Origin: Firmicutes bacterium UBA5389
Lineage (GTDB): Bacteria > Bacillota > DTU025
Direction of reading: 5' to 3'
Assembly: GCA_002409965.1 (NCBI GenBank)
Contig: DHON01000122.1
Location: 19,867-83,866 of the forward strand
DNA length: 64,000 nt
Below, in pieces: positions 1-40,022 of this stretch. The position numbers and the translations under genes are program-made. Position 1 is the stretch's first letter, and every line of letters begins with the position of its first letter. The notes under the pieces were generated by a model. That model did no database searches. It was not told where the DNA came from and saw only the letters and a list, made by a program, of their open reading frames with translations.

Positions 1-282
1 TCCGATGAGCCCGCGCTGGGCTTGCCGCGCGAGCTGGTTCATGGAAAAGGCTGCAAGTCCTGCGGCAACACAGGCTACTCGGGTCGGACCGCGATCCACG
101 AGATCATGATGGTCAACGAGCCTGTTCGCGAGTTGGTGTCGCGCAATGCCCCGAGCGACGAGATAGCGTCCGTTGCCCGGCAGCAGGGCATGAAGAGGCT
201 GATCGAAGATGGGGCGGAGAAGGTGCTCGCGGGCGTAACCACCATAGACGAAGTGCTCAGGGTGTCGGCAGGCGATGAATGA
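1..282 (+). CDS. pilB: Type IV pilus assembly ATPase PilB/GspE, C-terminal fragment (5' end lies outside the window)
   Basis: The frame is open from base 1. The C-terminal motif GCKSCGNTGYSGRTAIHEIM is typical of GspE/PilB ATPases. pilT and pilC follow directly. Confidence 0.8.
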   Translation, partial: SDEPALGLPRELVHGKGCKSCGNTGYSGRTAIHEIMMVNEPVRELVSRNAPSDEIASVARQQGMKRLIEDGAEKVLAGVTTIDEVLRVSAGDE

Positions 283-1378
283 TCGGAGTGTGAAGGTACC
301 TGTGTCGCTCAGTATGGACGAGCTGTTGCTCGAGGCGGTAAAACTGAATGCTTCCGATTTGCACCTCACCACCGGCTTGCCGCCGATGGTGAGGGTAAAC
401 GGGGTGCTGAGGCCGCTTCCCGACCTACCCAGGCTGATGCCCCCTGATACCGAAACTTTGGTGCACAGTATCATGAAGGACGAGGTGCGCCACAGGTTCG
501 AAGAGGCGGGAGAGGTCGACTTTTCCTACGGCATTCCTCGAATCGCCCGGTTCAGGGTGAACGCGTACTTGCAGCGCGGTTCGGTGGGGGCGGCGCTCCG
601 CGTTATTCCAACTGAGATACGCACCTTAGAGCAGCTGGGCCTGCCGGCGGTAGTGCGCGGTTTCGCCGAGAAGACCCGGGGGATGCTGCTGGTAACAGGG
701 CCCACGGGCAGCGGCAAGTCAACAACCCTGGCCGCCATGATCGACATAATCAACCGCGAGCGCGCGTGTCACATAATCACGCTGGAGGACCCCATCGAGT
801 ACCTCCACAAGCACAACCAGAGCATGATCAACCAGAGGGAGGTCGGCTCCGACACCATGTCCTTCGCGGCGGCGCTCAGAGCCGCGCTGCGTGAAGACCC
901 CGATGTGATACTTGTGGGCGAGATGCGCGATTTGGAGACTACGTCGATAGCGTTGACCGCCGCCGAAACCGGCCACTTGGTTCTTGCAACGCTGCACACT
1001 AACGATTCGGTGCAGACTGTCGATAGAGTAATCGACCAGTTTCCGCCGCACCAGCAGCAGCAGATCCGCGTGCAGTTCTCAGGAGTCCTACTCGGGATAG
1101 TCTCGCAGGCCTTGCTGCAGCGGGCCGACGGCAACGGCCGAGTGGCAGCCATCGAGGTGATGGTGGCCACGCCCGCAGTGCGCAACCTGATCCGCGAGGG
1201 CAAGACGCACCAGCTCTACTCGGTGCTCCAGACCGGCTCCAGGTTCGGGATGCAGAGCCGCGACTCGCACCTTAAGGAGCTTGCGCAGAAGGGCACCGTC
1301 ACTTGGGAGGACGCGTTGACATACGCCACTGACCCGGAGGAGCTGAGACGACTATCTCAGCAGGCAGTGAAGCTCTAG
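275..1378 (+). CDS. pilT: Twitching-motility (retraction) ATPase PilT
   Basis: 367 aa. N-terminal LNASDLHL motif, Walker A GPTGSGKSTT, Asp box and His box (ATLHTN), overall PilT-like. The ATG overlaps the pilB stop. Confidence 0.9.
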   Translation: MNDRSVKVPVSLSMDELLLEAVKLNASDLHLTTGLPPMVRVNGVLRPLPDLPRLMPPDTETLVHSIMKDEVRHRFEEAGEVDFSYGIPRIARFRVNAYLQRGSVGAALRVIPTEIRTLEQLGLPAVVRGFAEKTRGMLLVTGPTGSGKSTTLAAMIDIINRERACHIITLEDPIEYLHKHNQSMINQREVGSDTMSFAAALRAALREDPDVILVGEMRDLETTSIALTAAETGHLVLATLHTNDSVQTVDRVIDQFPPHQQQQIRVQFSGVLLGIVSQALLQRADGNGRVAAIEVMVATPAVRNLIREGKTHQLYSVLQTGSRFGMQSRDSHLKELAQKGTVTWEDALTYATDPEELRRLSQQAVKL

Positions 1379-1396
1379 CAGAGGGAGGTGAGAGGG

Positions 1397-2635
1397 ATGG
1401 CTAGCGTAAGTTGGACCTATCGCGGCCGGGACATGTCCGGCAAGACTGTTGAAGGCTCCATGGACGCCGAGACGGCCGACGGCGTGGCCGAACGCCTGAG
1501 GCAGCAGGGTTACATACCCACCATGATAGCCCCTGCCAAGCGCGGGGTATCGGCCGCGCTCGACATGCCTATCGGCGGGGCCAAGAAGGTTCAGGCTGCG
1601 ACCAAGATGACCGTTACCCAGCTCTACCTGGTGTCTAGGCAGCTCGCCACGATGATCGCCGCCGGCATCCCTCTCGTGCAGTCCTTGGCCATCCTGGGCC
1701 AGCAGGTGGACGATGCCCGGGTAGGTCAGCTCCTCGCGGACGTCAGGCACAATGTGGAGTCGGGAGAGACGTTCGCCGCGTCGCTGGGCAAGTATCCGGC
1801 GGTGTTCCCTCCGCTCTTCGTGCACATGGTGGAGGCGGGCGAGGCCTCCGGTACCATGGACGTGGTGCTTGACCGGGTGGCTACGCATTTCGAGAAGGAG
1901 GTGGAGGTGCGGGGGAAGATCAAAGGGGCTCTTACATACCCCGCGGTGTTGGTATTGGTAGCCGCCGGGGCCATCATGGCCCTGATGGGGTTCGTGTTGC
2001 CAACGTTCATCGACATGTTCGCGGAGTTCGGCATGGAACTGCCCATGGTGACCCGCGTGCTCTTCGGCTACGGCAAGAGCGTGCAGAACTACTGGTACCT
2101 ACATTTCGGAGTGCCGGCGCTCATCATCATCGCGTTCATGAGGTACATCAAGGGTTCGGGCAAGTCGTGGTGGGACCACTTCCTGCTGGGAATCAAGGTC
2201 TTTGGATCCGTTGTGCGCAAATCCCAGACCGCCCAGTTTGCACGGACCTTTGGAATGTTGATGCAAAGCGGCGTGCCCATGCTACAGGCTCTTGACATCT
2301 TGGACAGGTTGTCAGACAATGCCGTTGTTCGAGAAACGGTGAAAGAAGCCAAAGCTTCAGTGCGAGACGGTGTAGGACTTGCGAGACCTCTCAGACAATC
2401 GCAAATCTTCCCACCAATGCTCGCGCACATGGTGGCCATCGGCGAGGAGACCGGCGCCCTCGACCAGTTGCTCCACAAGACCGCCGACTTCTACGATCGC
2501 GAAGTAGACCAGGCGATCCAGAGCCTCACCGCGATGATAGAGCCGGCGATCATACTGGTGATAGGCGTGTTCGCGGCCTTCATCGTGGCGGCGATCATGG
2601 TGCCTATGTTCAATATGGCGAATTTGGCGATGTAG
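1397..2635 (+). CDS. pilC: Type IV pilus platform protein PilC (GspF family)
   Basis: Two GspF-type repeats and three TM segments. GGGAGG lies 8 nt upstream of ATG 1397. The ORF track start at 1388 is an alternative. Confidence 0.9.
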   Translation: MASVSWTYRGRDMSGKTVEGSMDAETADGVAERLRQQGYIPTMIAPAKRGVSAALDMPIGGAKKVQAATKMTVTQLYLVSRQLATMIAAGIPLVQSLAILGQQVDDARVGQLLADVRHNVESGETFAASLGKYPAVFPPLFVHMVEAGEASGTMDVVLDRVATHFEKEVEVRGKIKGALTYPAVLVLVAAGAIMALMGFVLPTFIDMFAEFGMELPMVTRVLFGYGKSVQNYWYLHFGVPALIIIAFMRYIKGSGKSWWDHFLLGIKVFGSVVRKSQTAQFARTFGMLMQSGVPMLQALDILDRLSDNAVVRETVKEAKASVRDGVGLARPLRQSQIFPPMLAHMVAIGEETGALDQLLHKTADFYDREVDQAIQSLTAMIEPAIILVIGVFAAFIVAAIMVPMFNMANLAM

Positions 2636-2718: not shown

Positions 2719-3078
2719 GTGAGGAATGAAAAAGGTTTCACCTTGATGGAGCTGATGATCGTTATCGTGATCATCGGTGTCTTGGCGGCAATTGGGATAC
2801 CTGCTTATAACGGCTATGTGAACAAGGCCAAAGAGGCCGCGTGCAAAGCGAACAAACGCACTATTGAGACAGCAGCAGGCCTGTACTGGGCCGAAACGGG
2901 GCTGGCGATTGCCGAAGATAAGATCACCACAAGTGCGGATTGCGTGCTGAAGGGTTACCTGACAAATGTAGGCGAGATACTATGCCCGCTGGATACCGCC
3001 GCAGAAAAGGCGGGCTATGGTTTCGGTATCGATGACGCTGGCAAAGTGACTGTAACCTGTAAGGCGGGCCACAATTAG
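2719..3078 (+). CDS. pilA: Type IVa major pilin (prepilin)
   Basis: Short leader MRNEKG followed by [22 protein letters not shown], the class III signal with N-methylation site and Glu5. 119 aa with four Cys. Composition is visibly more AT-rich than the neighbouring genes. Confidence 0.85.
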
Positions 3079-3150
3079 CGGTCAGCTCAGCTCGAATAAT
3101 GGTCGTACGGTCGGATGAGATGGCCCTTTCGGGCACAGTGTTGGTTCTGT

Positions 3151-3182
3151 CATGCCGGGCACTTTCTGCGTCGCCCGGCATG
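3151..3182 (+). terminator. Perfect 10-bp hairpin downstream of the pilin gene (possible attenuating terminator or stabiliser)
   Basis: CATGCCGGGC (3151-3160) pairs with GCCCGGCATG (3173-3182) around a 12-nt loop. There is no clear U-tract. Confidence 0.35.
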
Positions 3183-3227
3183 CTCCTTATCCAAAAAGAT
3201 GAAGTGAGCTGTGTTCGATTGCTGTTC

Positions 3228-3968
3228 ATGCTGACATTGCTAGCGGCTGTCTTGGGCCTTGGCATCGGCAGCTTCCTCAATGTCTGTATCTGCCGCTTAC
3301 CTGAGCATCGCTCGATCGCGTGGCCGCGGTCGTCATGCCCACACTGTGGGAGGCGGCTTGCGCCACGCGATCTAGTGCCGGTCGTGAGCTACTTGCGTTT
3401 GGGCGGCAGGTGCAGATACTGCAGGGAGCCCATATCACCTCAGTATCCGATCGTGGAACTTGCGACCGGTCTACTTTTTGCCGCCATCGTGGCAGCTTAC
3501 GGGGTCAGCCTGGCAAGCATCAAACACATGATCTTCGTTTCTCTTCTCATAGTCGTCGCGGGAACCGACATCAACACCCGTCTCATTCCCAACACCGTCA
3601 CCTATCCCGGTATGGCCATCGGCCTCATCTTGTCCCTGTTCGTCCCGGGCATCTCCCTGCTGCAGTCCATCATAGGCCTCCTGGTATGCGGGGGCGTTGT
3701 CTATTTGCTCGCCTTGGCTAGCCGTGGAGGCATGGGCGGGGGCGATATCAAGCTCATGGGGATGATGGGGGCGTTTCTGGGGTGGGATGCGGGCCTGCTG
3801 GCTCTGTTCATCGGGGCGCTTTTGGGGTCGGTTGTGGGGATTGAGCGTATCGCTTTGGGCAAGCAGAAGCGGCGCGACCCCATGCCGTTTGGGCCGTTTC
3901 TCGCCGTAGGAGGCCTGATTTCTGCGTTTTTCGCCCCGTCTATCCTGTCTTTCATCTTTTTTCAGTAG
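3228..3968 (+). CDS. pilD: Prepilin peptidase / N-methyltransferase PilD (peptidase A24)
   Basis: N-terminal CPHCGRRL...CRYC zinc-type motif and a multi-TM A24 body with a GGGDIKLMG motif. The upstream part of the ORF (3099-3227) does not look like PilD, so the call was trimmed to ATG 3228. Confidence 0.85.
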   Translation: MLTLLAAVLGLGIGSFLNVCICRLPEHRSIAWPRSSCPHCGRRLAPRDLVPVVSYLRLGGRCRYCREPISPQYPIVELATGLLFAAIVAAYGVSLASIKHMIFVSLLIVVAGTDINTRLIPNTVTYPGMAIGLILSLFVPGISLLQSIIGLLVCGGVVYLLALASRGGMGGGDIKLMGMMGAFLGWDAGLLALFIGALLGSVVGIERIALGKQKRRDPMPFGPFLAVGGLISAFFAPSILSFIFFQ

Positions 3969-4037
3969 GAGTTTATCTATTGCAGTCGAATAGCTAATAA
4001 GGTGTTTTGTACTCTTCGTCTCAGGGGGGATGGATCG

Positions 4038-5168
4038 GTGCCGATCGGTCTTTTCGGAAGACGCGCTAAGAGCATGGTCGGGCTTGACATCGGCACAAGC
4101 CGCGTCAAGTTGGTTGAACTAACGGCGAGGGGCGCGTCTGTCGAGCTTACGCGCGCGGCAGTCGAGCTGACCCCAGTGGACGTGATCCGCGACGGGAAGG
4201 TGGTACAGCCCGAGCAGGTGGCCGCGGTGATCAAGAAGGCTCTCGCTGCTGGTCGCTTCAGGCCGGGCGAGGTGGTGGCGGCCATTGCCGGGCAGGGAGT
4301 GGTCGTGCGGCATGTGCAGTTTCCGAAGATGCCTGAAGAGGAACTGCGCGAGGCTCTCAAGTGGGAGGGCCAGAAGTACATACCTTTCCCCATGGAAGAA
4401 GCGGCAGTTGATTTCGAGATCATCCGAGGCGTTGCCGACCCCGAGGCGGCGAACATGGAAGTGATGCTCGTCGCGGCGCAGCGGAGCATCGTCGACTCGC
4501 ATCTTGCGGCGATAGAACTGGCAGGGCTCAGGGTGGTCGCTGTGGACGTGCAGCCGTTTACGGTCCTTCGGGCGCTGCGATATGAGCCTTTGGGGGCCGA
4601 GAGCCCGTGCTCCGCGGCCAACGGGGTCGTGGCCTACGTCGACATCGGCGCAGGTACCACTGATATCGTCATCGCTGACGGCGAGATCATTCGGTTCACC
4701 CGAATCGTGCCCGTGGGAGGCTACAGCTTCACCAGGGCCATCGCCGACCGTCTTGGCATCGGATTCGAAGAGGCGGAGCAGATCAAGATCGAGGAAGCCC
4801 GCATCTATGAGGACCAGTCGCACCTGGATGCGCTGGACGCCCGGGGTCGCGCGATTGCCGAGGCGGTGCTCGAGACGGCCTGCGCCATCGGCACTGAGGT
4901 CCGCCGGTCGCTGGATTACCACGATCTGCAGCTGCAGGGCAGGAGGGACGATGCCTCCGTCAGCCGGGCGGTGTTGGCCGGAGGAGGATCTGTCCTAGAC
5001 GGGCTGGACCACTATCTCCAGGGCGAACTGGGGCTGCCCACCAGCATGTGCGACCCCCTGCGGAATATAGCGATCAACCCCAAGGTCGCGTCCAGGCTCG
5101 ATCTGGACAAGCTGGGGCCGATGCTCGCTGTGGGCGTGGGCCTCGCTCTGCGGGAGGTGGTTGATTAA
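4038..5168 (+). CDS. pilM: Type IV pilus assembly protein PilM (actin-like ATPase fold)
   Basis: N-terminal LFGRR...VGLDIGTSRVKLVEL is typical of PilM. GTG 4038 is preceded by GGGGGGA; ATG 4074 is an alternative start. Confidence 0.85.
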   Translation: MPIGLFGRRAKSMVGLDIGTSRVKLVELTARGASVELTRAAVELTPVDVIRDGKVVQPEQVAAVIKKALAAGRFRPGEVVAAIAGQGVVVRHVQFPKMPEEELREALKWEGQKYIPFPMEEAAVDFEIIRGVADPEAANMEVMLVAAQRSIVDSHLAAIELAGLRVVAVDVQPFTVLRALRYEPLGAESPCSAANGVVAYVDIGAGTTDIVIADGEIIRFTRIVPVGGYSFTRAIADRLGIGFEEAEQIKIEEARIYEDQSHLDALDARGRAIAEAVLETACAIGTEVRRSLDYHDLQLQGRRDDASVSRAVLAGGGSVLDGLDHYLQGELGLPTSMCDPLRNIAINPKVASRLDLDKLGPMLAVGVGLALREVVD

Positions 5169-5722
5169 TGCCCAGGATCAACCTGCTGCCAGAGCGCCAA
5201 GCCAAGAAGGCGCCGGTCAGTCCGAAGCGGCTTGTCTTCGTTGTTGTCGTGGAGGTCGTGGTGGTTGCCGCGCTCGCGGTCGGCCTGAGCCAGCTCTTTA
5301 CAATGCGCCAGATGGAGCGGGAGCTGGCGCAGGTTGGGGCACAACTCGCGACGATGCAGCAGGACCTGGACGTACTGAGCCGTGTGCAGACGCGCGCTAA
5401 GGAGATGGACGCTCTTGCCGACGAAATCCGGTCGATTCAGGCCGAGAACTGCGCCCCCGCTCCGGTCCTGCGTGAGCTGCGCAACATCATCCCGCAGGAT
5501 GTGTGGCTGGAATCGTTCTCAACTGACCCGAAGGGGGCCATAAGCATAGGCGGGGCCACGTTCTCTATGGAGTCTGCGGCCCGTCTTTCGTTGCAGCTCG
5601 AGCGTTCGCCCGTATTCGTCGATGTCAAGCTGGGTTCAGTCTCCTTGGGATCTAGGGGCGAAAGCCAGGTGTACACATTCAGCATCGGCTGTGCCCTTGA
5701 GACGGCCGGGGCGGGGAGGTGA
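5168..5722 (+). CDS. pilN: Type IV pilus assembly protein PilN
   Basis: N-terminal MPRINLLPERQ motif, a single TM helix, and a TAATG overlap with pilM. Confidence 0.8.
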   Translation: MPRINLLPERQAKKAPVSPKRLVFVVVVEVVVVAALAVGLSQLFTMRQMERELAQVGAQLATMQQDLDVLSRVQTRAKEMDALADEIRSIQAENCAPAPVLRELRNIIPQDVWLESFSTDPKGAISIGGATFSMESAARLSLQLERSPVFVDVKLGSVSLGSRGESQVYTFSIGCALETAGAGR

Positions 5723-5728
5723 GCCAGG

Positions 5729-6385
5729 ATGTCTGCATTTGACCACACCAACCGGCAGATGCGGCTATTGGGCGCGCTCATAGTAGTCCTGGCTGCGGCA
5801 GGCCTTTATCTGTACGTCTACTTACCGCAGCAGCGCCGGCACGAACAGCTCAGGGCCGACCTTGATAGGGCCAACTCGGAGCTTTCGATCAGCCTGGCGA
5901 AGATGCGCAAGGCACCCGAGGCTGAGGCGCAACTGGAAGCGGCCATCGCAGGGCTCGAGTCACTGATGCGCCTGATCCCGGAGGAGGACAAGCTCAACTG
6001 GATCGTGCGCGACATCGAATCGGTGGCCCTGGCCAACCGCGTAATCGTCGCCGAGGCCGCCCTGGACGACGGCAAGCTGCGCGGAAGGTACCTGGAGGTC
6101 CCCCTTACACTGGCTTTGACGGGCAAGTACGAGGATGTGCTCAGTTTCCTCGAGGGCCTGATCGGGCTGCCCAGGATCATCAACGTACACGGCTTCACTT
6201 TCGAGGGCGGGGCATCGCGCCCTGATGTTCAGGCGGCGGAGGCGATGGCAGAGACAGCCGAAGCCGAGTCCGGCCTGCCTCGCGAGAACTTGATCTCCGC
6301 CACCGTGCAGGCCACAACGTATGCTTTGGCAAAGGGGGGTGGGCAGGTTGATAAACCTCAGGCGAAGCCGGCCGCGGGTCGCTAA
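5729..6385 (+). CDS. pilO: Type IV pilus assembly protein PilO-like
   Basis: One N-terminal TM helix, a coiled-coil segment, then an alpha/beta domain. Its position after pilN supports the call. Confidence 0.65.
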   Translation: MSAFDHTNRQMRLLGALIVVLAAAGLYLYVYLPQQRRHEQLRADLDRANSELSISLAKMRKAPEAEAQLEAAIAGLESLMRLIPEEDKLNWIVRDIESVALANRVIVAEAALDDGKLRGRYLEVPLTLALTGKYEDVLSFLEGLIGLPRIINVHGFTFEGGASRPDVQAAEAMAETAEAESGLPRENLISATVQATTYALAKGGGQVDKPQAKPAAGR

Positions 6386-7007
6386 GGTGGACTTGGCCCC
6401 AGCCCCGGTTGCGGCAGGTTCTGTGGATTCGGCGGATTCCGCTGACGAGCAAGAGCGAGCGAGGCGGCGGCGGCATGTGTGGATACCCGCTCTGGTCCTG
6501 GTGGCGCTGATCGGAGTTGCGGCGGGATATTTCCTTTTCATGGCGAGCGACAGGCGTGCGGCTTTGAGCCCTGGTGCGTCTGGGCCGACCGTGGCGGCGG
6601 GCGGCCGTTTCGCTCAGAGGTTCGCCGACCTGCTAGCCGCGAGCGATGTCGCCGGGCTGACGGCAGACGGGCCGGCGCTTGGGGCGAACGAGGGAGGCCG
6701 TTGGGATCCGTTTGCGCCGCTGGTGGAATTGGGGCCGGCTGTCAAGCCCATCGAGTCCGATAGCCGAGCGGTTGCCCCGCCTGAGCCCGAGCCTGAGCCG
6801 CCCAAGCCGCCGCAGGCGATGCTCACGGGGGTGTTGCGGTCAGGGGGGAGGGCGGTCGCCATCATTCGCGTGGAAGGGCAGACACGGCTGACCCGGGTGG
6901 GGGAGTCTCCATTCGACGGCGCTGTGGTCAGATCCATAGACGACAAGTCTGTTGTAGTATCGTTTCTCGGAGAAGATATCCACTACTCCCTAGGGGGTGA
7001 GCAGTAA
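6348..7007 (+). CDS. PilP-like pilus assembly protein (TM anchor, Pro/Ala-rich linker, C-terminal beta domain)
   Basis: It sits between pilO and pilQ. The C-terminus LTGVLRSGGRAVAIIRVEGQTRLTRVGESPFDGAVVRSIDDKSVVV resembles the PilP beta-sandwich. The start is uncertain (6321, 6348 or 6387). Confidence 0.45.
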   Translation: MINLRRSRPRVAKVDLAPAPVAAGSVDSADSADEQERARRRRHVWIPALVLVALIGVAAGYFLFMASDRRAALSPGASGPTVAAGGRFAQRFADLLAASDVAGLTADGPALGANEGGRWDPFAPLVELGPAVKPIESDSRAVAPPEPEPEPPKPPQAMLTGVLRSGGRAVAIIRVEGQTRLTRVGESPFDGAVVRSIDDKSVVVSFLGEDIHYSLGGEQ

Positions 7008-10000
7008 TGATGAAGGTTGAACGCGCTGGCGCTCTTGCCTGTGCTGCGGCGGTCGTGATCTGCCTGGCGCTGGCTTTAGCGCCGGGAGCGTTGGCGGCAT
7101 CGCCCAAGGTCGACTTGGACCTGGTCGGGGCGGAGATCGCAGACGTGTTCCGGGCCCTGGCCGAGCTGGGCGAGATGAATATCGTGCTCGACCCCGCAGT
7201 GCAAGGCAGGCTCACCATTCGCCTGCATGACCTGACGTGCGAGGAGGCTCTGAAGCTGGTTGCCTACATTACGGGCGTGGAATACCGCATCGTGGGGACG
7301 AGCCTGATCGTCACCCCGCCCGGAAAACCCAGCGCCCTCGATCCGATGCAGGTTGAGAGGTTTTCGCTCACTCATGCTAGGGTGGACGATGTAATGCCCG
7401 TGCTGGGCTTGGTGGCCGACAGCACTAAGTTGCAGGCCGACCCGAGGACCAACTCGGTGATAGGCCGGGGCTCGGCTGCCGGATTGGAGCAGGTCAGGCA
7501 CGTCATCTCCATGCTGGACGTGGCGGTGGCTCCGCCTGAGGCCGTGATCCCTGCCGCCGGCGAGGGCGTGCAGGGCAAGCAGGAGGCTCCGGCTGAGTCT
7601 CTTGAAGTTGTGCGGCTCAGCTACGCCTCGGCGAAATCGGTGGCGGGCCTTCTGGGTCTGGTGGTCCCGACCGGCAAGATCCAGGCCGATTCGGAGATCA
7701 ACGCCATCGTAATGCTGGCGGACGAGGCCGCGCTGAACAGAGCCCGCGAGATCATAGCGCAGGTTGATATTGCGTCTGCCCAGGCACCGCTGGCTTCTGC
7801 TTCTGGGGGAACCAGAGTATCGGGGCAGGAAGCGCCGGCGGAGGCTGAGGCGGTCAAGGTAATCAAGCTGTCGTGGTCGCCGGCGGAGAGAGTCTCCGAG
7901 GCTCTGAGCGTGGTGGTGGACGGTGCGAGGATCGGCGTGGATTCCCGCACTAACTCGCTTGTGGTGCGCGCCCGGCAGTTGGAGATGTCGCGTGTCGAGG
8001 AGATCGCGGCGCTTCTCGATGTGCCGGTGGTCGAGCCGGAGAAGCCGATCGAGCCTGAGTCGCCCAAGCCCCAACCGCGCGCGCTGGAGTCGTTCTGTCT
8101 CACTCACGCAGACGCGCAGGCTGTGCAGGCAGCGCTGGCTTTGGTCGTTCCGGCCGAGGCCGTGCATGCCGATGCACGTACCAACTCGCTCCTGGTGTTC
8201 GGCGCGCCTGACGAAATGGCGCGCGCCCGGGAGATGATAGCTCTGATCGACGCGGCGGCTCCTGCGGAGGATTCCCCGACTGCGGTGGAGATAAGCGCGC
8301 CCGAGCCTGTCGCGCCGGTCGCGGACGCGGCTCCGGCCAGGACGGTTCACGCGTTCCGCTTGGCGCAGGCCGACCCCGCCGCAGTGCGGGAGGCGCTCGC
8401 CCTTGTGGTGTCCCGCGATGCGGTCCATGTGGACTCCCGTACTCGGACAGCGCTGGTTCTGGGGCTGCCTGACGAGATCGCCAGGGCAGCTGAGATAGTG
8501 GCCTTGCTCGATACGGCGCCGGCCGAGGCCTACCTCGTAGCGGAGCCGAAGCTCAAGCCGCAGCCGGAGCCGCCGGCCGATGTGATCCGCGTGGCGCGAC
8601 TGGAGCATGCCGTGGCGGCCGAGGCGCGCGCGGCTATCGCGTCCGCGATCCCCGGAGTGGGCCTGACGGCTGACGCCCGCACCAATTCCGTGATCGTAGT
8701 GGGCCCAGCTGAGCTGCAGTCGCGAGTGGACCAGCTCATCGCCGCGCTCGATGTTGGAGTGGACCAGCCTGAGCCTCCTGTTGCGCAGATGCAGCCGGCG
8801 CCCACCGTGTTCGGGCCCGAGCCGGAGACGGCCGAGGTAGTTCGGCTGGAGTATGCCGCGCCTGCGGCAGTGCGCCAGGCGCTCGCGCCCAGTCTGCCCG
8901 AGTCCAAGATGAGCGTGGACGAGCGGACCGCGTCCATTGTCATAGTGGGCACCGCCGCCCAACGCGAGCAGGCCAAGCGGATCATAGCCCGACTGGACGT
9001 GGAGGTTTCCTCGTCTGCCGACGAGATCACGGCGCCGGTGGCCCCGGCCGACCCCGAGGTGCTGCAGGTGTTCAGGCTGTCGCATGCGCAGGCAGCGCGT
9101 GTGCGGGAGGCGTTGGCCCCTGTGGTGCCGGTCGACTGCATGACGGTGGATGAGCGCACCAATTCGCTCATCATGAGTGCCTCCCGGTCGCGCGTAGCGC
9201 GGGCCGGAGAGGTCATAGAGAGGCTAGACGTGGAGGTTAAGCCCGTCCCGGGCCAGCCGGACGAGCCGCCGGAGGAGCCCGAGGCGGAAGTGGCAAGCTA
9301 CAGGCCGGCCAACGCCCCTGCGGAATCGCTGCGCCCGGCTGTGGGTCTCTTGGTGGCGCTATCCGACATTCAGGTCGATTCCAGGACCAACACTCTGCTG
9401 GTCCGAGCCGCGCCATCGGTGCAACAGCGCGTGGCCGAGCTGGTGCGAGGGCTGGATGTGCCGGTTGTACCTGCGCCTCAGCCGGAGCTTGGACCCGCGC
9501 CCGAAGCCCCGCCGCCTGAGGTGATGCGGGTGTTCCGGCTGACGCATGCGGCAGCATCCGACATGAAGGCACTCCTGGGAATAGCGGCGCCTGCAGCCAA
9601 AATGCAGCCGGATGATCGGACCAGGTCGCTGATTGTGATGGCGCCTGCGGCTACTTTGGCTGTTCTGGATGAAATGGTGCGAACGTTGGACATTCCGGCG
9701 GTGCCTAGCGTGCAGGCGAGTGCACAGTCGGAGCCTGAACCGGATCCTGTGGCGACGCGGGTGTACAGGCTAAACCACGCAGTGCCCGGGGATGTGGCGA
9801 AGGCCCTGGAAGGGCTGGTGAAGGGCGCCGTAAAGGCAGATTCACGCACATCCTCACTGGTAGTCGAGGCCGCGGAGTCGCAGCATGCCAGAGCGCTGAG
9901 TCTCATCGAAGCCCTCGACAGGGAGCTCCCGCAGGTGCTGATAGAGGCGAGGCTGGAGGAGCTGTCGGGCGATGCAGGCCAAAGGCTGGGGTTGGACTGG

Positions 10001-10645
10001 TCTTTCAACGGCCTGACCTTCAACCAGAACGCCTATGGCCAGTGGGTCAGCGTAAGCCTGGATTTCCTGGCAAGCCTGACCGCCCTTGAAGAGGAGGGCA
10101 AAGCCTCCCTGATAAGCCGTCAACATACGTTCACCGTGAGCGGCAGGACCGGCAAGATACTGATCGGCGACAGGATCCCTGTAATGATACAGGAGGTTCA
10201 GGACGGCGTTGCCGTTGCCAAGCTGGAGTTCATCAACGCCGGCATTGAACTTGCCATCACCCCTACCGTCAGTGAAGACGGGACGATCACGGCCGAGGTG
10301 AAGCCGGTGATAAGCTCCATCGTGGGATGGACCCCGCAGAATTACCCGCAGATCAGGACCAGGGAACTCGAAACTATGGTCTCGCTCAAGAGCGGGCAGA
10401 CGGCTGTCATCGGCGGCATGCTGCACCGCGATGAGATAGAGAGCCTGGCAAAGGTGCCGATCCTCGGGGAGATCCCGCTCCTTGGGGAGCTGTTCAAGAA
10501 GCGAAGCACGACTACCGAGAACACTGAGATTGTAGTGATGATCACCGCCTGGCAGGTGAACCCGGGTCAGTGCCCGGTCGCCGGCCCGGCGACGGACGAT
10601 GAGCGATTCCCGGTCAAGCTAGAGGGCGCGCCGACTCAGAAGTAG
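7007..10645 (+). CDS. pilQ: Type IV pilus secretin PilQ, 1212 aa, with an N0-like domain, 11 N-domain modules and a C-terminal secretin domain
   Basis: Signal peptide. The C-terminal part (PQVLIEARLEEL...GKILIGDRIPV...SGQTAVIGGML...VPILGEIPLLGELFKKRS) is a canonical secretin core. The N-terminal modules carry a DxRTNSL-type motif. Confidence 0.85.
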   Translation: MMKVERAGALACAAAVVICLALALAPGALAASPKVDLDLVGAEIADVFRALAELGEMNIVLDPAVQGRLTIRLHDLTCEEALKLVAYITGVEYRIVGTSLIVTPPGKPSALDPMQVERFSLTHARVDDVMPVLGLVADSTKLQADPRTNSVIGRGSAAGLEQVRHVISMLDVAVAPPEAVIPAAGEGVQGKQEAPAESLEVVRLSYASAKSVAGLLGLVVPTGKIQADSEINAIVMLADEAALNRAREIIAQVDIASAQAPLASASGGTRVSGQEAPAEAEAVKVIKLSWSPAERVSEALSVVVDGARIGVDSRTNSLVVRARQLEMSRVEEIAALLDVPVVEPEKPIEPESPKPQPRALESFCLTHADAQAVQAALALVVPAEAVHADARTNSLLVFGAPDEMARAREMIALIDAAAPAEDSPTAVEISAPEPVAPVADAAPARTVHAFRLAQADPAAVREALALVVSRDAVHVDSRTRTALVLGLPDEIARAAEIVALLDTAPAEAYLVAEPKLKPQPEPPADVIRVARLEHAVAAEARAAIASAIPGVGLTADARTNSVIVVGPAELQSRVDQLIAALDVGVDQPEPPVAQMQPAPTVFGPEPETAEVVRLEYAAPAAVRQALAPSLPESKMSVDERTASIVIVGTAAQREQAKRIIARLDVEVSSSADEITAPVAPADPEVLQVFRLSHAQAARVREALAPVVPVDCMTVDERTNSLIMSASRSRVARAGEVIERLDVEVKPVPGQPDEPPEEPEAEVASYRPANAPAESLRPAVGLLVALSDIQVDSRTNTLLVRAAPSVQQRVAELVRGLDVPVVPAPQPELGPAPEAPPPEVMRVFRLTHAAASDMKALLGIAAPAAKMQPDDRTRSLIVMAPAATLAVLDEMVRTLDIPAVPSVQASAQSEPEPDPVATRVYRLNHAVPGDVAKALEGLVKGAVKADSRTSSLVVEAAESQHARALSLIEALDRELPQVLIEARLEELSGDAGQRLGLDWSFNGLTFNQNAYGQWVSVSLDFLASLTALEEEGKASLISRQHTFTVSGRTGKILIGDRIPVMIQEVQDGVAVAKLEFINAGIELAITPTVSEDGTITAEVKPVISSIVGWTPQNYPQIRTRELETMVSLKSGQTAVIGGMLHRDEIESLAKVPILGEIPLLGELFKKRSTTTENTEIVVMITAWQVNPGQCPVAGPATDDERFPVKLEGAPTQK
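7352..9935 (+). repeat. Eleven tandem secretin N-domain modules inside pilQ, separated by Pro/Glu/Ala-rich linkers (protein-level repeat)
   Basis: The motif (V/L)xxxRLxHAxxxxVxxALxxxVP...D(S/A/E)RTNSL(I/V)V...LD(V/I) occurs 11 times. Anchors are DPRTNSV, DSEINAI, DSRTNSL, DARTNSL, DSRTRTA, DARTNSV, DERTASI, DERTNSL, DSRTNTL, DDRTRSL and DSRTSSL. Confidence 0.75.
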
Positions 10646-15990: not shown

Positions 15991-16545
15991 GTGGTGGACG
16001 GCGTGTTCCGGTGGGTGCGCGGCATAGTCGCGGTGGTGCTCACGATGACGTTCATGGAGATGGTTGTGCCGCGCTCAGAACTGAAGAAATACGTTGATGT
16101 GGTGGTGGGCTTGGCGGTGATTGGGGCCATCCTTACCCCCCTACTCGGCCTGGGCGTGGGCATCGGAACCGGGCTGGAGCTTGCTGCCGAGGCGACTCGC
16201 AGTTGGCCGGCATCCTGGAGGACGGCGGCGCAAACCGGAGCGCCGCCAGGGCTGGACGCAGAAATCGCCTCATCCGTTGCGTCTCGCGCGCTGGAAGCCC
16301 GCGTGCGGAAGGCCCTCAGTTCGTCCTACGGAAGGCTTGCAGACGGCTGGACCGTCAGAGTGCGCGTTACAGACGGCGGCGAGCTGGAGGCGGCGGAGGT
16401 GGATACGGGCCTGCGCGCGCCGTCAGGTGGGTCTGGCTCGCAGGGTCCGGAGGGCTCTCTGCCTGTCGCCGTGGACCGGACGGCTGTGACGCGGACGGTT
16501 GCTTTGGCGCTGGAATCGCCGCTTCAGTTGGTGACAGTGAGGTGA
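15991..16545 (+). CDS. spoIIIAF: Stage III sporulation protein AF
   Basis: N-terminus WVRGIVAVVLTMTFMEMVVPRSELKKYV with two TM helices. AAGGAGG lies 8 nt upstream. Confidence 0.75.
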   Translation: MVDGVFRWVRGIVAVVLTMTFMEMVVPRSELKKYVDVVVGLAVIGAILTPLLGLGVGIGTGLELAAEATRSWPASWRTAAQTGAPPGLDAEIASSVASRALEARVRKALSSSYGRLADGWTVRVRVTDGGELEAAEVDTGLRAPSGGSGSQGPEGSLPVAVDRTAVTRTVALALESPLQLVTVR

Positions 16546-16553
16546 CGGGCGGC

Positions 16554-17159
16554 ATGGGGCGGGATTTTCTGAATACCCCGGGGGTCAAGCCCCTTTTGGT
16601 GTTGGCGGCCGTGGGCGTGATGCTGATCATCATAGGCAGCCTGCTGCGGACGGGGACTTCCCGCGAGTCGCGGCAAACGCCCCTGCCGGATGGGGCGAGT
16701 GTCTCGAGCAAGCAGCCTGGATCGGGGGATACGGAAGGCGGTGCCGCGCTGGAGAGGTATAGGTCTGACTTGGAGTCGATGTGCGAGGAGATTCTGTCGA
16801 AGGTGGAGGGCGCGGGGGCGGTGAGCGTCCGGATCACTCTGGTCGGGAGTTCGTCCAGGGAGTATGCCCAAAACTCAGTGGTGGAGGAGAGCAACAGCGA
16901 GGAGCAGGCATCGGGGCAGACCAAACGTTCTTCGGAGCGGCGCCAGACGCGCGAGATGGTGCTTCTGACCGATCCGTCTTCTGGGCGCGGGCAGGTGCCG
17001 ATACTCCTTGCGGAGCAGGCGCCTCGAATAGCCGGAGTGCTGGTGGCAGCGCCCGGCGCCGAGGATTCGGCGATCAAGCGCGAACTGGCTGCAGCGGCCC
17101 AGACGCTGCTGGGCGTGCCGGCCCACCGGGTGATGGTGGTGGCCTCGTGCAAGCCGTGA
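16554..17159 (+). CDS. spoIIIAG: Stage III sporulation protein AG (ring-forming, EscJ/PrgK-like)
   Basis: An N-terminal TM helix, then VSVRITL...REMVLL...PRIAGVLVAAPGAEDSAIKRELAAAAQTLLGVPAHRVMV, which is typical of SpoIIIAG. Confidence 0.8.
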   Translation: MGRDFLNTPGVKPLLVLAAVGVMLIIIGSLLRTGTSRESRQTPLPDGASVSSKQPGSGDTEGGAALERYRSDLESMCEEILSKVEGAGAVSVRITLVGSSSREYAQNSVVEESNSEEQASGQTKRSSERRQTREMVLLTDPSSGRGQVPILLAEQAPRIAGVLVAAPGAEDSAIKRELAAAAQTLLGVPAHRVMVVASCKP

Positions 17160-17202
17160 CGGAACGCGCCAGAACTCACGACAAGTCCGAGGAGTGATCG
17201 GC

Positions 17203-17805
17203 GTGAAGGGCGACAGATGGTTTCTGCAGCTGTCTTATGCCATGGTTGGCCTGGCCGTGCTGGCCCTGGCCATCTCGTCGGCGGCGGACTCGCGACGAGG
17301 GCGGAGAGCATCGGCGTCCGTGCCCGCGCCGGCACCCACGTCGATACCTCAGCCGGCATCTGTACCGACAGAGCGGACAGAAGAAGGCGCGGGTTCGGGC
17401 TTGCCCATAGTGTCGGAATCCGCGTCTGCGCCCGTGCCCGTTGCTCTGCCCCGGTCGAGCTTCTTCGAAGAGTTCAGACTGGAGCGTGAGAGGGAGCGGG
17501 CGATCGAAATCGAGATCATCCAGGAAGTCGCGGAGGACCCCGATACTGATTCCGAGGTGAGACGCCAGGCGCAGGCCGCCTTGCTGGCCGCGGTGAGCAG
17601 GGCGCGCCGCGAGTTCGATGCCGAGAGCATGATACTGGCGAGGGGGTATGCGGATGCCATTGTGTCGTTGACTGACGAGGGTGCAAGCGTGGTGGTGAAG
17701 TCGGGAAGACTTGAAGAGGCGGATGCACGGGCGATAGGCGATATCGTGGGGCGCGCCGCAGGCATCGGCCTGAGCAGAATCACGATTGCCCAGAGAGAGG
17801 ACTGA
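17203..17805 (+). CDS. spoIIIAH: Stage III sporulation protein AH
   Basis: TM anchor, FFEEFRLERERERA motif and a C-terminal YscJ-like domain (AIVSLTDEGASVVVKS). GAGGAG lies 8 nt upstream of GTG 17203. Confidence 0.8.
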   Translation: MKGDRWFLQLSYAMVGLAVLALAISSAADSRRGRRASASVPAPAPTSIPQPASVPTERTEEGAGSGLPIVSESASAPVPVALPRSSFFEEFRLERERERAIEIEIIQEVAEDPDTDSEVRRQAQAALLAAVSRARREFDAESMILARGYADAIVSLTDEGASVVVKSGRLEEADARAIGDIVGRAAGIGLSRITIAQRED

Positions 17806-17867
17806 AGGATAAACCGTGGGGCGCGGTGAATTGTTTAGAGACAGCGACGGCAGAATGCTGCCTCGTC

Positions 17868-17876: not shown

Positions 17877-17927
17877 TCTATTGCGGTCGCCAGTGATTCT
17901 TCCTGGCGGACGCCGGGGGGTGCAGAG

Positions 17928-37949: not shown

Positions 37950-40022
37950 ATGTCTGTGGTATCAAGGCGGTTGCTCACCGCTGTCAGTAGTTTGCTCGTG
38001 GTTGTGCTGATGGCTTCGGCCGCTATCGCGGCGCCTGCTGCGGTGGCCGATGTGCCCACCGACCACTGGGCGTATGAAGCCGTGACATTGCTGGTGAATA
38101 AGGGATACATGGGTGTCTACGAGTCGGGGCAGTTCCGAGGGGACGATAGCGTTAGCAGGTACCTGCTGGCGTTTGTGGCAGCGCGGCTTCTGCGCGATGT
38201 GGAGTCGGGCCGAACTACGCTTACCGACGACGACATGAAAGTCGTTCGGGAGCTTTCGCTCAATCTACGGGAACAGCTGGCGGTGGTCACTGGCCGTCTG
38301 GCCCAGCTGGAGAAGGCCGCGGCGGATGCAGCGAGCGGTGCCGCCATCGCTTCCGACAATACGGCGCGCATGGCTGTGCAGTACGCCGAGTTCGTTGCGG
38401 CGATAGAGGAGCAGTTCAAACAGATCAAGGAAGATGCCGATGCCCGCGCCGGCGCCGGCGACCAGAAGCTAACTGCGCTGTACGCCGACTCCAAGAGGCA
38501 GATAATGGAAGGAGATGAAGCTCTCCGTCAGGAGCTGGCCGTGGTGTCGGCCAAGGCCGACTCGATCCATGCCTCTGTATTGGCAGCAGCGGAGAGCGAA
38601 ACCAAGTCCCGCCGGGATCTCGAATCCAAGCTGAGCCTGTCGATAGATGGTCTGAAGGCTGCGGACGGCGCTCAGCAGGCGCAGATAGACCGGCTCTCCT
38701 TGAAGCTGGATGAGGCCGTGGCCGCCAGCGCTTCAGTTCGGGCCTGGGCTGAGTCTGCCATTGCCGGAGAGGCCGCGGCCAGGCAGAGCCAGGTCGCGTC
38801 CCTCCAGGCCAAGCAGGACGAATTTGCCAAGTCGATGAGGCTTTCTTTCGATTCCGCGCTGGAGGCCGAGCGGGCCGCGCGCGCCAATGACCTGTCCGAC
38901 CTTCTGACTAAGCTAGAAGGGCTTACGAAGGTGCAAGACAACTTGGCCCAATCCTCCGCTCTGGCCCTTGGCGCCGCTGTCGAGGCCGAGCGGCGCGACC
39001 GCGAGGCGGCAGACGAAGCCCTGAGAGATGCAGACGACAAGCTCAGGCTGTCGCTGGACGCACTTGGGGCGCGGCTCGCGGCGGAGCGTACTGCGCGAGA
39101 GGCGGACACAGCGGAGCTAGCGAAAGCCCTCGGCGATCTGACAGCCAGCCATGATGAGTTGGCGGCATCGGCGGCATCGAAGGAAGCCCTCTCACAAGCT
39201 GCTGCTGCCGCATCGGCGTCCCTGGGCGCTGAGCAAATCGCCAGGCAGGAAGAGGCGCGCCGCATACTTGCGGATCTGGCCGCCGCGCGCGGCGAGATAG
39301 CCGACCTTGATCGCAAGACCGCCGAGGCTGATGCGGCGATCCTTGCAGGGCTCGCGGCCGAGCGGGCGCGGATAGACGCCGTCGCCGCTGAGCTTGCAGA
39401 CCTTAAGGAGAGCGTGGCGCAGCTTCAGCAGTACGCGCAGACCATCGATGGCGGGCTAGGTGAGCTCGCCCAGAAGCAGGGCTCCGATTACAGGCAACAG
39501 CGGCAAGCGCTGATCGATTTGCAGGTTGCACTGGATCAGCTCTCGAAGGCTCTGAACGACAAGATCGCGGCCAATGCCGCGGAAGATGTGCGCACCGGCG
39601 CCAAGATCGTCGAGAACGCTATGGATATCCGCAAGGTAGTCGATGCCCTAAACGAGACCAGGCAGGCGCTGAATGCCACTGCCGCGTCGACGAAAGAGGC
39701 ACACGCCGCCGTTGCCGAGGTCAACGCGGCCATAGAAGACGTGAACACGCGTCTGGCCAGCATCGAAATGATGCTCCAGGGCAGCGTGGACGAACTCAAG
39801 AGGCGCTTTGCAGACGATCTGGTGGCCGAGAGGTGGGAAGCGGAGGCCCGCGAGGTCAAGCTGCAGTCGATGATCGAAGAACTGCAGTCGCGTGTGGAAC
39901 GGCTCGAGGGGCAGAGAGAGGACCAGCCCGCCAAGATGAGCGGCGGAGCCATGATCGGCGTCCTAGCTGTAGTGGCTGCCATCGTGGCCGCGATAGCCAT
40001 CGGCTCCGGCGGAAGCAAGTAG
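37950..40022 (+). CDS. SLH-domain protein with a ~560 aa coiled-coil rod and C-terminal TM anchor (Omp-alpha-like spacer)
   Basis: Signal peptide, one SLH motif (VPTDHWAYEAVTLLVNKGYMGVYESGQFRGDDSVSRYLLAFVAARLL), a long Ala/Glu/Leu/Arg heptad-like region, and the terminal GGAMIGVLAVVAAIVAAIAIGSGGSK. Confidence 0.7.
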   Translation: MSVVSRRLLTAVSSLLVVVLMASAAIAAPAAVADVPTDHWAYEAVTLLVNKGYMGVYESGQFRGDDSVSRYLLAFVAARLLRDVESGRTTLTDDDMKVVRELSLNLREQLAVVTGRLAQLEKAAADAASGAAIASDNTARMAVQYAEFVAAIEEQFKQIKEDADARAGAGDQKLTALYADSKRQIMEGDEALRQELAVVSAKADSIHASVLAAAESETKSRRDLESKLSLSIDGLKAADGAQQAQIDRLSLKLDEAVAASASVRAWAESAIAGEAAARQSQVASLQAKQDEFAKSMRLSFDSALEAERAARANDLSDLLTKLEGLTKVQDNLAQSSALALGAAVEAERRDREAADEALRDADDKLRLSLDALGARLAAERTAREADTAELAKALGDLTASHDELAASAASKEALSQAAAAASASLGAEQIARQEEARRILADLAAARGEIADLDRKTAEADAAILAGLAAERARIDAVAAELADLKESVAQLQQYAQTIDGGLGELAQKQGSDYRQQRQALIDLQVALDQLSKALNDKIAANAAEDVRTGAKIVENAMDIRKVVDALNETRQALNATAASTKEAHAAVAEVNAAIEDVNTRLASIEMMLQGSVDELKRRFADDLVAERWEAEAREVKLQSMIEELQSRVERLEGQREDQPAKMSGGAMIGVLAVVAAIVAAIAIGSGGSK

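What the first reader, a model, noticed from the sequence alone, without database searches (positions are those of the whole stretch)
7007..10645. PilQ secretin with eleven tandem N-domain modules
Seen in sequence: after a signal peptide and an N0-like domain, a ~60-aa module recurs 11 times. The module reads (V/L)xxxRLxHAxxxxVxxALxxxVP....D(S/A/E)RTNSL(I/V)V.G.......R......LD(V/I). Each copy is followed by a 15-25 aa Pro/Glu/Ala-rich linker, before a canonical secretin core. Established knowledge: typical PilQ/GspD proteins carry one to four such ring-building N-domains. Thermus thermophilus PilQ is noted for a stack of about six, which spans an unusually wide periplasm. Inference: eleven modules predict a very long periplasmic conduit and therefore an unusually thick or wide envelope. 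The repeats are diverged at the DNA level, so they are old and selected, not an assembly artefact.
Basis: partly seen in the sequence, partly recalled or inferred. Interest (0 to 1): 0.7.

Follow-up and report, generated by a model that had tools for sequence, protein, structure and literature searches.

The report
Type IV pilus secretin with eleven rings
This gene encodes an outer-membrane pilus channel with eleven copies of the ring-building domain instead of the usual one to five, and across related genomes its length rises and falls with that of a rod-shaped protein tying the outer membrane to the cell wall, which points to an unusually wide gap between the two membranes.

Summary
ORF 7007-10645 (+) encodes a 1212-aa secretin with a signal peptide, an N0/STN domain, eleven Secretin_N modules (Pfam E 4.7e-105, 11 stretches), ten disordered Pro/Glu/Ala linkers of 12-23 aa, and a secretin core. 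The modules are 20-52% identical in protein and 42-57% in DNA. They are under purifying selection (dN/dS 0.13-0.15; linkers 0.32-0.54). [quoted passage not shown]

The gene closes a pilT-pilC-pilA-pilD-pilM-pilN-pilO-pilP-like cluster, so it is the type IV pilus secretin. The host is an uncultured, spore-forming Bacillota lineage with an outer membrane.

Eleven is not a record. Relatives carry 9-16 modules, and one assembly shows 20, partly from a suspect exact duplication. Planctomycetota secretins reach 13.

New evidence supports the wide-envelope inference. The window also encodes an Omp-alpha-like protein of 690 aa (SLH domain, about 560-residue helical rod, C-terminal membrane helix). In 12 genomes, PilQ length tracks this tether's length (r 0.83; independent contrasts 0.83-0.92).

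No paper in the searched library describes such secretins. No envelope has been measured.

The parts
275..1378 (+). pilT-like retraction ATPase
   Evidence: Pfam T2SSE E 2e-49
1388..2635 (+). pilC platform protein
   Evidence: Pfam T2SSF E 4e-64, two stretches
2719..3078 (+). pilA type IV pilin, 119 aa, with G|FTLMEL prepilin motif
   Evidence: Pfam N_methyl E 1.3e-9; sequence
3099..3968 (+). pilD prepilin peptidase
   Evidence: Pfam A24_N_bact and Peptidase_A24
4002..5168 (+). pilM
   Evidence: Pfam PilM_2 E 5e-54
5168..5722 (+). pilN, ordinary length (184 aa)
   Evidence: Pfam PilN E 1.6e-14
5729..6385 (+). pilO, ordinary length (218 aa)
   Evidence: Pfam PilO E 7e-15
6321..7007 (+). pilP-like protein, 228 aa, in the pilP slot directly upstream of pilQ; a hydrophobic segment and a long Ala/Gly/Pro-rich stretch precede the C-terminal domain
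   Evidence: Weak, sub-threshold Pfam T2SSC match at aa 165-218, E 0.0014. An unannotated gene of similar size (204 aa) holds the same slot in a relative. The domain layout is read from the translation.
7007..10645 (+). pilQ secretin ORF, 1212 aa
7007..7096 (+). signal peptide, aa 1-30, ending ALA|AS
   Evidence: Read from the sequence; no predictor run
7097..7342 (+). N0/STN domain, aa 31-112
   Evidence: Pfam STN and GspD N0 are sub-threshold here and above threshold in homologues. Modelled fold has pLDDT about 80-87. Foldseek hits the PilQ N0 structure 4ar0.
7343..7534 (+). Secretin_N module 1
7592..7783 (+). Secretin_N module 2
7844..8035 (+). Secretin_N module 3
8075..8266 (+). Secretin_N module 4
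8336..8527 (+). Secretin_N module 5
8576..8767 (+). Secretin_N module 6
8822..9013 (+). Secretin_N module 7
9053..9244 (+). Secretin_N module 8
9281..9472 (+). Secretin_N module 9
9515..9706 (+). Secretin_N module 10
9743..9934 (+). Secretin_N module 11, adjoining the core
10082..10549 (+). secretin core (outer-membrane barrel and gate), aa 1026-1181
   Evidence: Pfam Secretin E 5e-39. Best solved relative is P. aeruginosa PilQ 6ve2, E 1e-29.
37950..40022 (+). Omp-alpha-like tether between outer membrane and cell wall, 690 aa: signal peptide, SLH domain, helical rod aa 93-656, C-terminal membrane helix
   Evidence: Pfam SLH 24.7 bits against a cut-off of 20.8. AlphaFold2 secondary structure. 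Its length co-varies with PilQ length.

Best explanation
This is the outer-membrane secretin (PilQ) of a type IV pilus machine. The host is an uncultured, spore-forming Bacillota lineage with an outer membrane, probably in or near Limnochordia.

Each subunit carries an N0 domain, which docks on the PilP-like protein at the inner membrane. Eleven ring-building N-domains follow, joined by short flexible linkers, and then the membrane-embedded core.

In the oligomer, the twelve periplasmic domains would stack into a conduit of roughly 60 nm if compact. It could reach about 100 nm if the linkers are stretched. That is about twice the length of the six-ring Thermus channel (about 35 nm).

The stack is this long because the distance from outer membrane to cell wall and inner membrane is large. 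That distance is set by an Omp-alpha-like SLH/coiled-coil tether encoded 27 kb downstream.

The number of modules changes over evolution through duplication or loss of one to five modules in the middle of the stack. The end modules, which make specific contacts, stay fixed.

Shown here: domain content, fold, selection, gene context, and co-variation with the tether. Inferred: ring stacking, absolute lengths, and envelope width.
For: Identity as a secretin:
- Pfam finds Secretin_N 11 times plus one Secretin core.
- The best solved relatives are PilQ of P. aeruginosa and M. xanthus, then GspD.
- Foldseek matches only secretins.
- NCBIfam PilQ scores 283.7 bits against a cut-off of 284.35. GspD scores 291.2 against 351.35.

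Context:
- The cluster reads pilT, pilC, pilA, pilD, pilM, pilN, pilO, pilP-like, pilQ.
- The same order occurs in a relative.
- PilN and PilO have ordinary lengths. The extra distance must therefore be bridged by PilQ, perhaps with help from the PilP-like protein's linker.

Real, selected modules:
- dN/dS is 0.13-0.15 for modules, 0.15-0.18 for N0, 0.07-0.11 for the core and 0.32-0.54 for linkers.
- Each module is modelled as beta-alpha-beta-beta-alpha at pLDDT 80-88, and the linkers fall below 50.

Family:
- Relatives carry 9-16 modules, or 20 in one assembly.
- Modules 1-3 and 7-11 are orthologous across the clades 46-100% identical to the window's PilQ. Number changes are confined to the middle.

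Wide envelope:
- The Omp-alpha-like protein has an SLH domain, a helix over aa 93-656 and a C-terminal membrane helix.
- 564 helical residues at 0.1485 nm each give about 84 nm.
- In 12 genomes, PilQ length against tether length gives r 0.83 (p 0.001). Independent contrasts give r 0.92, or 0.83 with the suspect duplication collapsed. Ten of 11 contrasts share sign. The slope is 28-43 coiled-coil residues per module, about 4-6 nm.

Precedents:
- Thermus PilQ has six rings, forms a channel of about 35 nm, and spans part of a periplasm of about 70 nm (PMC5745081, PMC4463427).
- T. maritima has an Omp-alpha rod of 45 nm, a periplasm of about 70 nm, and tubes of about 80 nm ascribed to PilQ (PMC10160955).
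- The D. radiodurans SlpA coiled coil of 28 nm matches its outer membrane to cell wall distance of 30 nm (PMC9388160).
Against: - No cell of this lineage has been imaged, so envelope width and ring stacking are inferred.
- The linkers of 12-23 aa are predicted to be disordered. The stack could therefore be loose or compressible rather than a rigid tube.
- The Omp-alpha-like model has low confidence (pLDDT 56) and four short helix breaks. The rod could fold back and be shorter than 84 nm.
- The co-variation is noisy. Three genomes with 13 modules have tethers of 643, 724 and 869 aa. The window (11 modules, 690 aa) and its nearest relative (12 modules, 686 aa) differ by one module with no change in the tether.
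Two pairings use the full-length protein of a 90% cluster, because the genome's own copy is partial.
- The tree for the contrasts was built from PilQ itself.
- The 20-module extreme contains an exact 1092-nt tandem duplication in a short-read co-assembly.
- Subfamily models do not formally place the protein: it scores 0.65 bits under the PilQ cut-off.
Confidence: 0.75

Rival explanations
1. The extra modules do not build a long rigid conduit matched to a wide periplasm. Joined by disordered linkers, they form a loose or extensible chain. This chain would tolerate a variable gap, as at the ballooning poles of a toga-like envelope or during engulfment in sporulation. Alternatively, the modules serve another role such as binding the cell wall or partner proteins.
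For: All ten linkers are modelled with pLDDT below 50 and evolve fast, with dN/dS 0.32-0.54. The relation between module number and tether length is noisy. In T. maritima the periplasm varies from about 70 nm at the sides to about 450 nm at the poles (PMC10160955).
Against: Every module keeps the ring-building Secretin_N fold under purifying selection as strong as that on N0. Length changes track the tether in 10 of 11 contrasts. In all solved secretins these domains form stacked rings (PMC5745081).
Confidence: 0.13
2. The secretin mainly serves a type II secretion or DNA-uptake machine rather than pilus extrusion.
For: The GspD model scores slightly more bits than the PilQ model, 291 against 284. 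The protein in the pilP slot matches only the T2SS protein C family, and weakly. Sources label homologues GspD/PulD. Thermus PilQ serves both pili and DNA uptake (PMC5745081).
Against: The gene follows pilT, pilC, pilA, pilD, pilM, pilN and pilO directly, and no gspC-M set is in the window. The GspD score is 60 bits under its cut-off, whereas the PilQ score is 0.65 bits under. The best solved relatives are PilQ proteins. DNA uptake through the same pilus machine would not contradict the main reading.
Confidence: 0.08
3. The eleven copies are an assembly artefact or a decaying gene.
For: Many metagenome contigs of relatives break inside this gene. One relative carries an exact 1092-nt duplication.
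Against: The window copies are only 42-57% identical in DNA, so there are no exact repeats to mis-assemble. The frame is open over 1212 codons. A 97%-identical 1212-aa protein exists on an independent 119-kb contig. Modules are orthologous one by one in other species. dN/dS is 0.13-0.15.
Confidence: 0.01

Closest known systems
Thermus thermophilus PilQ (757 aa; PMC5745081, PMC4463427)
   Same: It is a type IV pilus secretin whose N-terminal domains form an exceptionally long stack of beta-alpha-beta-beta-alpha rings reaching deep into a wide periplasm. The organism also has an SLH/coiled-coil tether to the outer membrane.
   Different: Thermus has six rings (N0-N5) and a channel of about 35 nm. 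Here there are twelve periplasmic domains (N0 plus 11), and 10-17 or more in relatives. The modules are joined by Pro/Glu/Ala linkers of 12-23 aa. No structure or function has been tested here.
Thermotoga maritima envelope: Omp-alpha plus PilQ-ascribed tubes (PMC10160955)
   Same: It combines an SLH/coiled-coil rod with trans-periplasmic tubes about 80 nm long and 10 nm wide, ascribed to a PilQ machine, in a periplasm of about 70 nm. This is the pairing proposed here. From memory (Engel et al. 1992), T. maritima Omp-alpha also ends in a membrane anchor, as the window's protein does.
   Different: It belongs to a different phylum. The Omp-alpha rod there is 45 nm, against a possible 84 nm here. 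I could not test the domain count of the Thermotoga secretin or homology of the two Omp-alpha proteins.
Canonical type IVa PilQ (P. aeruginosa 6ve2, M. xanthus 3jc8)
   Same: These are the best sequence matches to the secretin core. The gene follows pilMNOP in the same way.
   Different: Those proteins have AMIN domains plus N0 and one N-domain. This one has no AMIN domain and eleven N-domains.
Type II secretion GspD (N0-N3)
   Same: It has the same N0, Secretin_N and Secretin domains. The Foldseek matches include GspD, ExeD, EpsD, PulD and XcpQ structures, including N0-N1-N2 crystal structures.
   Different: It has four periplasmic domains and a gsp operon context. The window protein falls 60 bits under the GspD equivalog cut-off.
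Planctomycetota (Phycisphaerae) giant secretins from metagenomes
   Same: They carry 9-14 Secretin_N domains in proteins of 1400-1800 aa. One has 13 by Pfam.
   Different: They are only 22-25% identical. They lack the STN/N0 match, their gene context is unknown, and they are uncharacterised.

Membership tests
Secretin superfamily | C-terminal secretin domain (Pfam PF00263) | tested here: met
   134 bits against a cut-off of 27.5, aa 1026-1181. It matches PilQ and GspD structures at E 1e-29 to 1e-19.
Secretin superfamily | [quoted passage not shown] | tested here: met
   11 stretches, 344 bits in total. The fold is modelled at pLDDT 80-88 in each.
Secretin superfamily | N0 (STN-like) domain at the mature N-terminus | tested here: inconclusive
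   STN scores 25.5 bits (cut-off 28.4) and N0 scores 22.7 (cut-off 27) in the window. Both are above threshold in homologues. The modelled fold is confident, and Foldseek hits the PilQ N0 structure 4ar0.
Secretin superfamily | Forms a 12-15-mer gated channel in the outer membrane | not testable with these tools
   Only a monomer could be modelled, and the core was poorly predicted.
Type IV pilus secretin PilQ (NCBIfam TIGR02515) | Score above the curated cut-off | tested here: not met
   283.7 bits against a cut-off of 284.35, a miss of 0.65 bits.
Type IV pilus secretin PilQ | Encoded directly after pilM, pilN, pilO and pilP, alongside pilin, prepilin peptidase, platform and ATPase genes | tested here: met
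   the same order occurs in a relative. The pilP identity is weak, resting only on a sub-threshold T2SSC match.
Type IV pilus secretin PilQ | AMIN domains (typical of proteobacterial PilQ, not universal) | tested here: not met
   No AMIN match in Pfam.
Type II secretion GspD (NCBIfam TIGR02517) | Score above the equivalog cut-off and gsp operon context | tested here: not met
   291.2 bits against 351.35. No gsp genes flank it.
Omp-alpha-type tether (for the 690-aa partner protein) | N-terminal SLH domain, long coiled-coil rod, C-terminal membrane helix | tested here: met
   SLH scores 24.7 bits against 20.8. The model is helical over aa 93-656 and 669-683. The hydrophobic C-terminus is conserved in all relatives. 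Sequence homology to T. maritima Omp-alpha was not tested.

The most novel reading that the evidence does not exclude
An uncultured clade of spore-forming Bacillota has a toga-like envelope whose outer membrane sits 60-120 nm from the cell wall. Two unrelated proteins act as co-evolving rulers of that gap. One is an Omp-alpha-type coiled-coil tether. The other is a secretin whose ring number (9 to 16, perhaps 20) is tuned by duplicating or deleting blocks of modules in the middle of the stack. These would be the longest secretin conduits known. They would also be a natural experiment on how machines that span the envelope keep pace with periplasm width.
Probability: 0.5. Interest if true: 0.75.

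Novelty: new variant of a known kind. Interest (0 to 1): 0.6.

Why it matters
Secretins are the outer-membrane gates of pili, secretion systems and DNA uptake. The six-ring Thermus PilQ has been called one of the largest characterised (PMC5745081).

A family with 10-17 periplasmic domains roughly doubles or triples that. It shows how the stack is lengthened: by block duplication in the middle, with fixed ends.

The co-variation with an independent tether gives a sequence-only way to predict envelope spacing in bacteria that cannot be cultured.

It also offers a natural counterpart to laboratory experiments in which lengthening Braun's lipoprotein widened the periplasm and affected machines that cross the envelope. 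I recall these experiments from memory and did not check them here.

Finally, it adds to the picture of outer membranes in the Bacillota, where the transition between one and two membranes is debated.

Tried and rejected
Tools unavailable or capped:
- The genome search and the fetch from genomes were shut. I could not search the window's own genome for other secretins, BamA, OmpM or LPS genes. I also could not fetch distant parts of relatives' contigs directly.
- The genome-contig scan returned only unnamed metagenome-assembled genomes and no cultured species.
- The metagenome scan with the tether alignment returned mostly generic SLH hits and no new pairs.

Pairing PilQ with the tether:
- With only 7 pairs the relation was weak for module counts (Spearman 0.59). 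It firmed up with 12 pairs.
- P0019 (932 aa, 9 modules) was dropped as an N-terminally truncated gene call.
- The tether-carrying genomes JAGNGE (882 aa), JAHZTK (886), JBJSVW (725) and JAIVRU (736) could not be matched by record to a secretin-bearing contig, so they are not separate data points.

Taxonomy:
- Placement from SpoIVA was only suggestive. The nearest named hits are 'Limnochordia bacterium' genomes at about 62% identity, barely above Desulfofundulus at 60%.

Literature:
- Searches on secretin with Limnochordia, on diderm Firmicutes, on Secretin_N/PF03958, on periplasm width and Planctomycetes, and on Thermotoga PilQ found no description of secretins with many N-domains.

Modelling:
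- The monomer AlphaFold model says nothing about ring stacking, and its secretin core is unreliable.

The artefact reading was rejected; see the rival explanations.
Full report
**The observation**

The ORF at 7007-10645 on the + strand is open for 1212 codons. Pfam finds Secretin_N in 11 separate stretches (E 4.7e-105) and one Secretin core at aa 1026-1181 (E 5e-39). At the N-terminus, STN and GspD-N0 match just below their thresholds.

An HMM built from the copies recovers exactly eleven full-length modules of about 64 aa, each at i-Evalue 1e-25 to 1e-31. Ten linkers of 12-23 aa, rich in Pro, Glu and Ala, separate them.

The copies are 20-52% identical in protein and 42-57% identical in DNA. 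Tandem Repeats Finder and the repeat finder see no long-period DNA repeat.

**Are the modules real domains under selection?**

AlphaFold2, run on the mature protein with an 18-sequence alignment, models an N0 domain and then eleven beta-alpha-beta-beta-alpha units at pLDDT 80-88. All ten linkers fall below pLDDT 50. As expected for a monomer, the core is poorly modelled. Foldseek against the PDB returns secretins throughout the 50 matches listed: Deinococcus 8co1, GspD, XcpQ N0-N1-N2, InvG and the PilQ N0 domain 4ar0.

I compared the gene with three orthologues from other species. dN/dS is 0.13-0.15 for modules, 0.15-0.18 for N0, 0.07-0.11 for the core and 0.32-0.54 for linkers. Every module is therefore maintained by selection about as strongly as N0. 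A 97%-identical 1212-aa protein sits on an independent 119-kb contig. An assembly artefact or a decaying gene is excluded.

**What machine does it belong to?**

The gene is the last of a co-directional cluster:

| Gene | Evidence |
|---|---|
| pilT-like ATPase | Pfam T2SSE |
| pilC | Pfam T2SSF |
| pilA | 119-aa pilin with G\|FTLMEL motif |
| pilD | prepilin peptidase domains |
| pilM, pilN, pilO | Pfam PilM_2, PilN, PilO |
| pilP-like | 228 aa, weak match to the T2SS protein C family |

A relative has the same order.

The best solved relatives of the core are PilQ of P. aeruginosa and M. xanthus, followed by GspD. The NCBIfam PilQ subfamily model scores 283.7 bits against a cut-off of 284.35. 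The GspD equivalog scores 291.2 against 351.35. By sequence, subfamily membership is borderline. By context, this is the type IV pilus secretin. There is no AMIN domain.

**What organism?**

Downstream lie pepP, efp and the spoIIIA operon, and further on spoIVA. The window also holds an OLE RNA. All relatives of the secretin come from uncultured Bacillota or Clostridia genomes assembled from metagenomes. Beyond the organism's own clade, the nearest named SpoIVA hits are 'Limnochordia bacterium' genomes at about 62% identity.

I read this as a spore-forming Bacillota lineage with an outer membrane, in or near Limnochordia. The placement is weak, and I could not search the rest of the genome because the genome tools were shut.

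**How unusual is eleven?**

In the characterised world it is unusual. [quoted passage not shown] It forms a channel of about 35 nm in a periplasm of about 70 nm (PMC5745081, PMC4463427).

Within its own family, eleven is at the low end. Full-length relatives carry 9 to 16 modules, and Pfam gives the same or nearly the same counts. One assembly shows 20 by my HMM and 19 by Pfam. That gene contains an exact 1092-nt tandem duplication in a short-read co-assembly. The true number there is either 15 or 20.

Secretins from Planctomycetota metagenomes carry 9-14 such domains. The literature searches found no paper describing any of these.

**How does module number change?**

I matched each module of 16 relatives to the window's modules. 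Modules 1-3 (next to N0) and 7-11 (next to the core) are orthologous across the clades 46-100% identical to the window's PilQ. All gains and losses lie in the middle. Examples are an extra module between 4 and 5 in the nearest species, a duplicated two-module unit in the 14-module proteins, and the five-module block in the 20-module assembly.

This is what one expects of a spacer whose ends make specific contacts. The window has the fewest modules of the clade 61-67% identical to it, which otherwise carries 12-14.

**Testing the wide-envelope inference**

I confirmed the following features:
- a signal peptide;
- an SLH domain (24.7 bits against a cut-off of 20.8);
- a model that is helical from aa 93 to 656 with four short breaks;
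- a hydrophobic C-terminal helix.

From memory, T. maritima Omp-alpha has the same layout. Its coiled coil is 45 nm long in a periplasm of about 70 nm. Tubes of about 80 nm ascribed to PilQ also cross that periplasm (PMC10160955). In D. radiodurans, the 28-nm coiled coil of SlpA matches the 30-nm distance from outer membrane to cell wall (PMC9388160). By the same logic, 564 helical residues here would span up to about 84 nm.

I then asked whether PilQ length and tether length change together. I assembled twelve genome pairs in four ways:
- both genes on one record;
- a shared genome-assembly prefix linking the tether's record to a pilQ locus already in hand;
- same-genome accession series.

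All the tethers compared share the same N-terminal SLH motif and C-terminal helix, so they differ only in the rod.

| Test | Result |
|---|---|
| PilQ length vs tether length, raw | r 0.83, p 0.001 |
| Independent contrasts on a PilQ N0-plus-core tree | r 0.92 |
| Same, with the suspect duplication collapsed | r 0.83 |
| Contrasts with the same sign | 10 of 11 |
| Slope | 28-43 coiled-coil residues per module, about 4-6 nm |

The slope is close to the roughly 4 nm per ring implied by the Thermus channel.

Sister comparisons are telling. One pair has 9 modules with a 670-aa tether against 14 modules with 929 aa. Another has 13 with 643 aa against 15 or 20 with 946 aa.

The relation is noisy, though. 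Three genomes with 13 modules have tethers of 643, 724 and 869 aa. Some pairings are indirect, and the tree comes from PilQ itself. I treat the result as good comparative support, not proof.

**Proposed mechanism**

N0 docks on the PilP-like protein near the inner membrane. PilN and PilO have ordinary lengths, so PilQ must cover most of the distance, perhaps helped by the long linker of the PilP-like protein.

Twelve periplasmic domains at about 4 nm each, plus a core of about 10 nm, give roughly 60 nm if compact. The 160 linker residues could add up to about 50 nm if stretched. This range brackets the 84 nm predicted for the tether. These lengths are inference from Thermus dimensions and textbook helix geometry.

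The main rival reading is that the disordered linkers make the stack loose or extensible rather than a rigid tube. Only imaging can decide between the two.

**Verdict**

This is a new variant of a known kind of system. It is a member of an undescribed family of very long type IV pilus secretins in uncultured Bacillota. Its length co-evolves with an Omp-alpha-like tether.

Noticed in passing
window 37950-40022: Omp-alpha-like protein of 690 aa with an SLH domain, a helical rod of about 560 residues and a C-terminal membrane helix. Relatives range from 643 to 946 aa and differ only in the rod.
   Followed up: yes
window 33929-40022; also L032 and L033 at about 16400-20500: A conserved five-gene block: ExbB/TolQ-like, ExbD-like, TonB_C-like, a secreted protein of about 660-677 aa with weak NPCBM_assoc/cohesin matches, and then the SLH tether. 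The block is kept in the distant relatives L032 and L033, and the 670-674-aa gene directly upstream of the tether recurs in the other relatives examined. This suggests one envelope-maintenance unit.
   Followed up: partly
L010 11121-13292: An exact 1092-nt tandem duplication (100% identical over about 1080 nt) inside the pilQ of CAZJHY010000004.1. It raises the module count from 15 to 20. It is either a very recent block duplication or a co-assembly artefact.
   Followed up: partly
P0027-P0121, e.g. P0047: Secretins of 1400-1800 aa from Planctomycetota and Phycisphaerae metagenomes carry 9-14 Secretin_N domains (13 by Pfam in P0047). This looks like an independent case of very long secretins in a phylum known for an enlarged periplasm.
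   Followed up: partly
L032 and L033, 3300-5600: In the clade about 35% identical to the window's PilQ, the spoIIIA operon is missing between efp and nusB. Asp23 and DUF2273 genes lie there instead. Sporulation genes may have moved or been lost in that clade.
   Followed up: no
L005, L007, L008, L011, L013-L015: Many short-read contigs of relatives end inside pilQ, so published genomes often list only partial secretins. Module counts from such records are unreliable. P0019 is an N-terminally truncated gene call.
   Followed up: partly
   Followed up: partly
window 7007-10645: The protein scores 0.65 bits below the NCBIfam PilQ cut-off and 60 bits below the GspD cut-off. Annotation pipelines therefore name it only 'secretin N-terminal domain-containing protein'.
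   Followed up: yes
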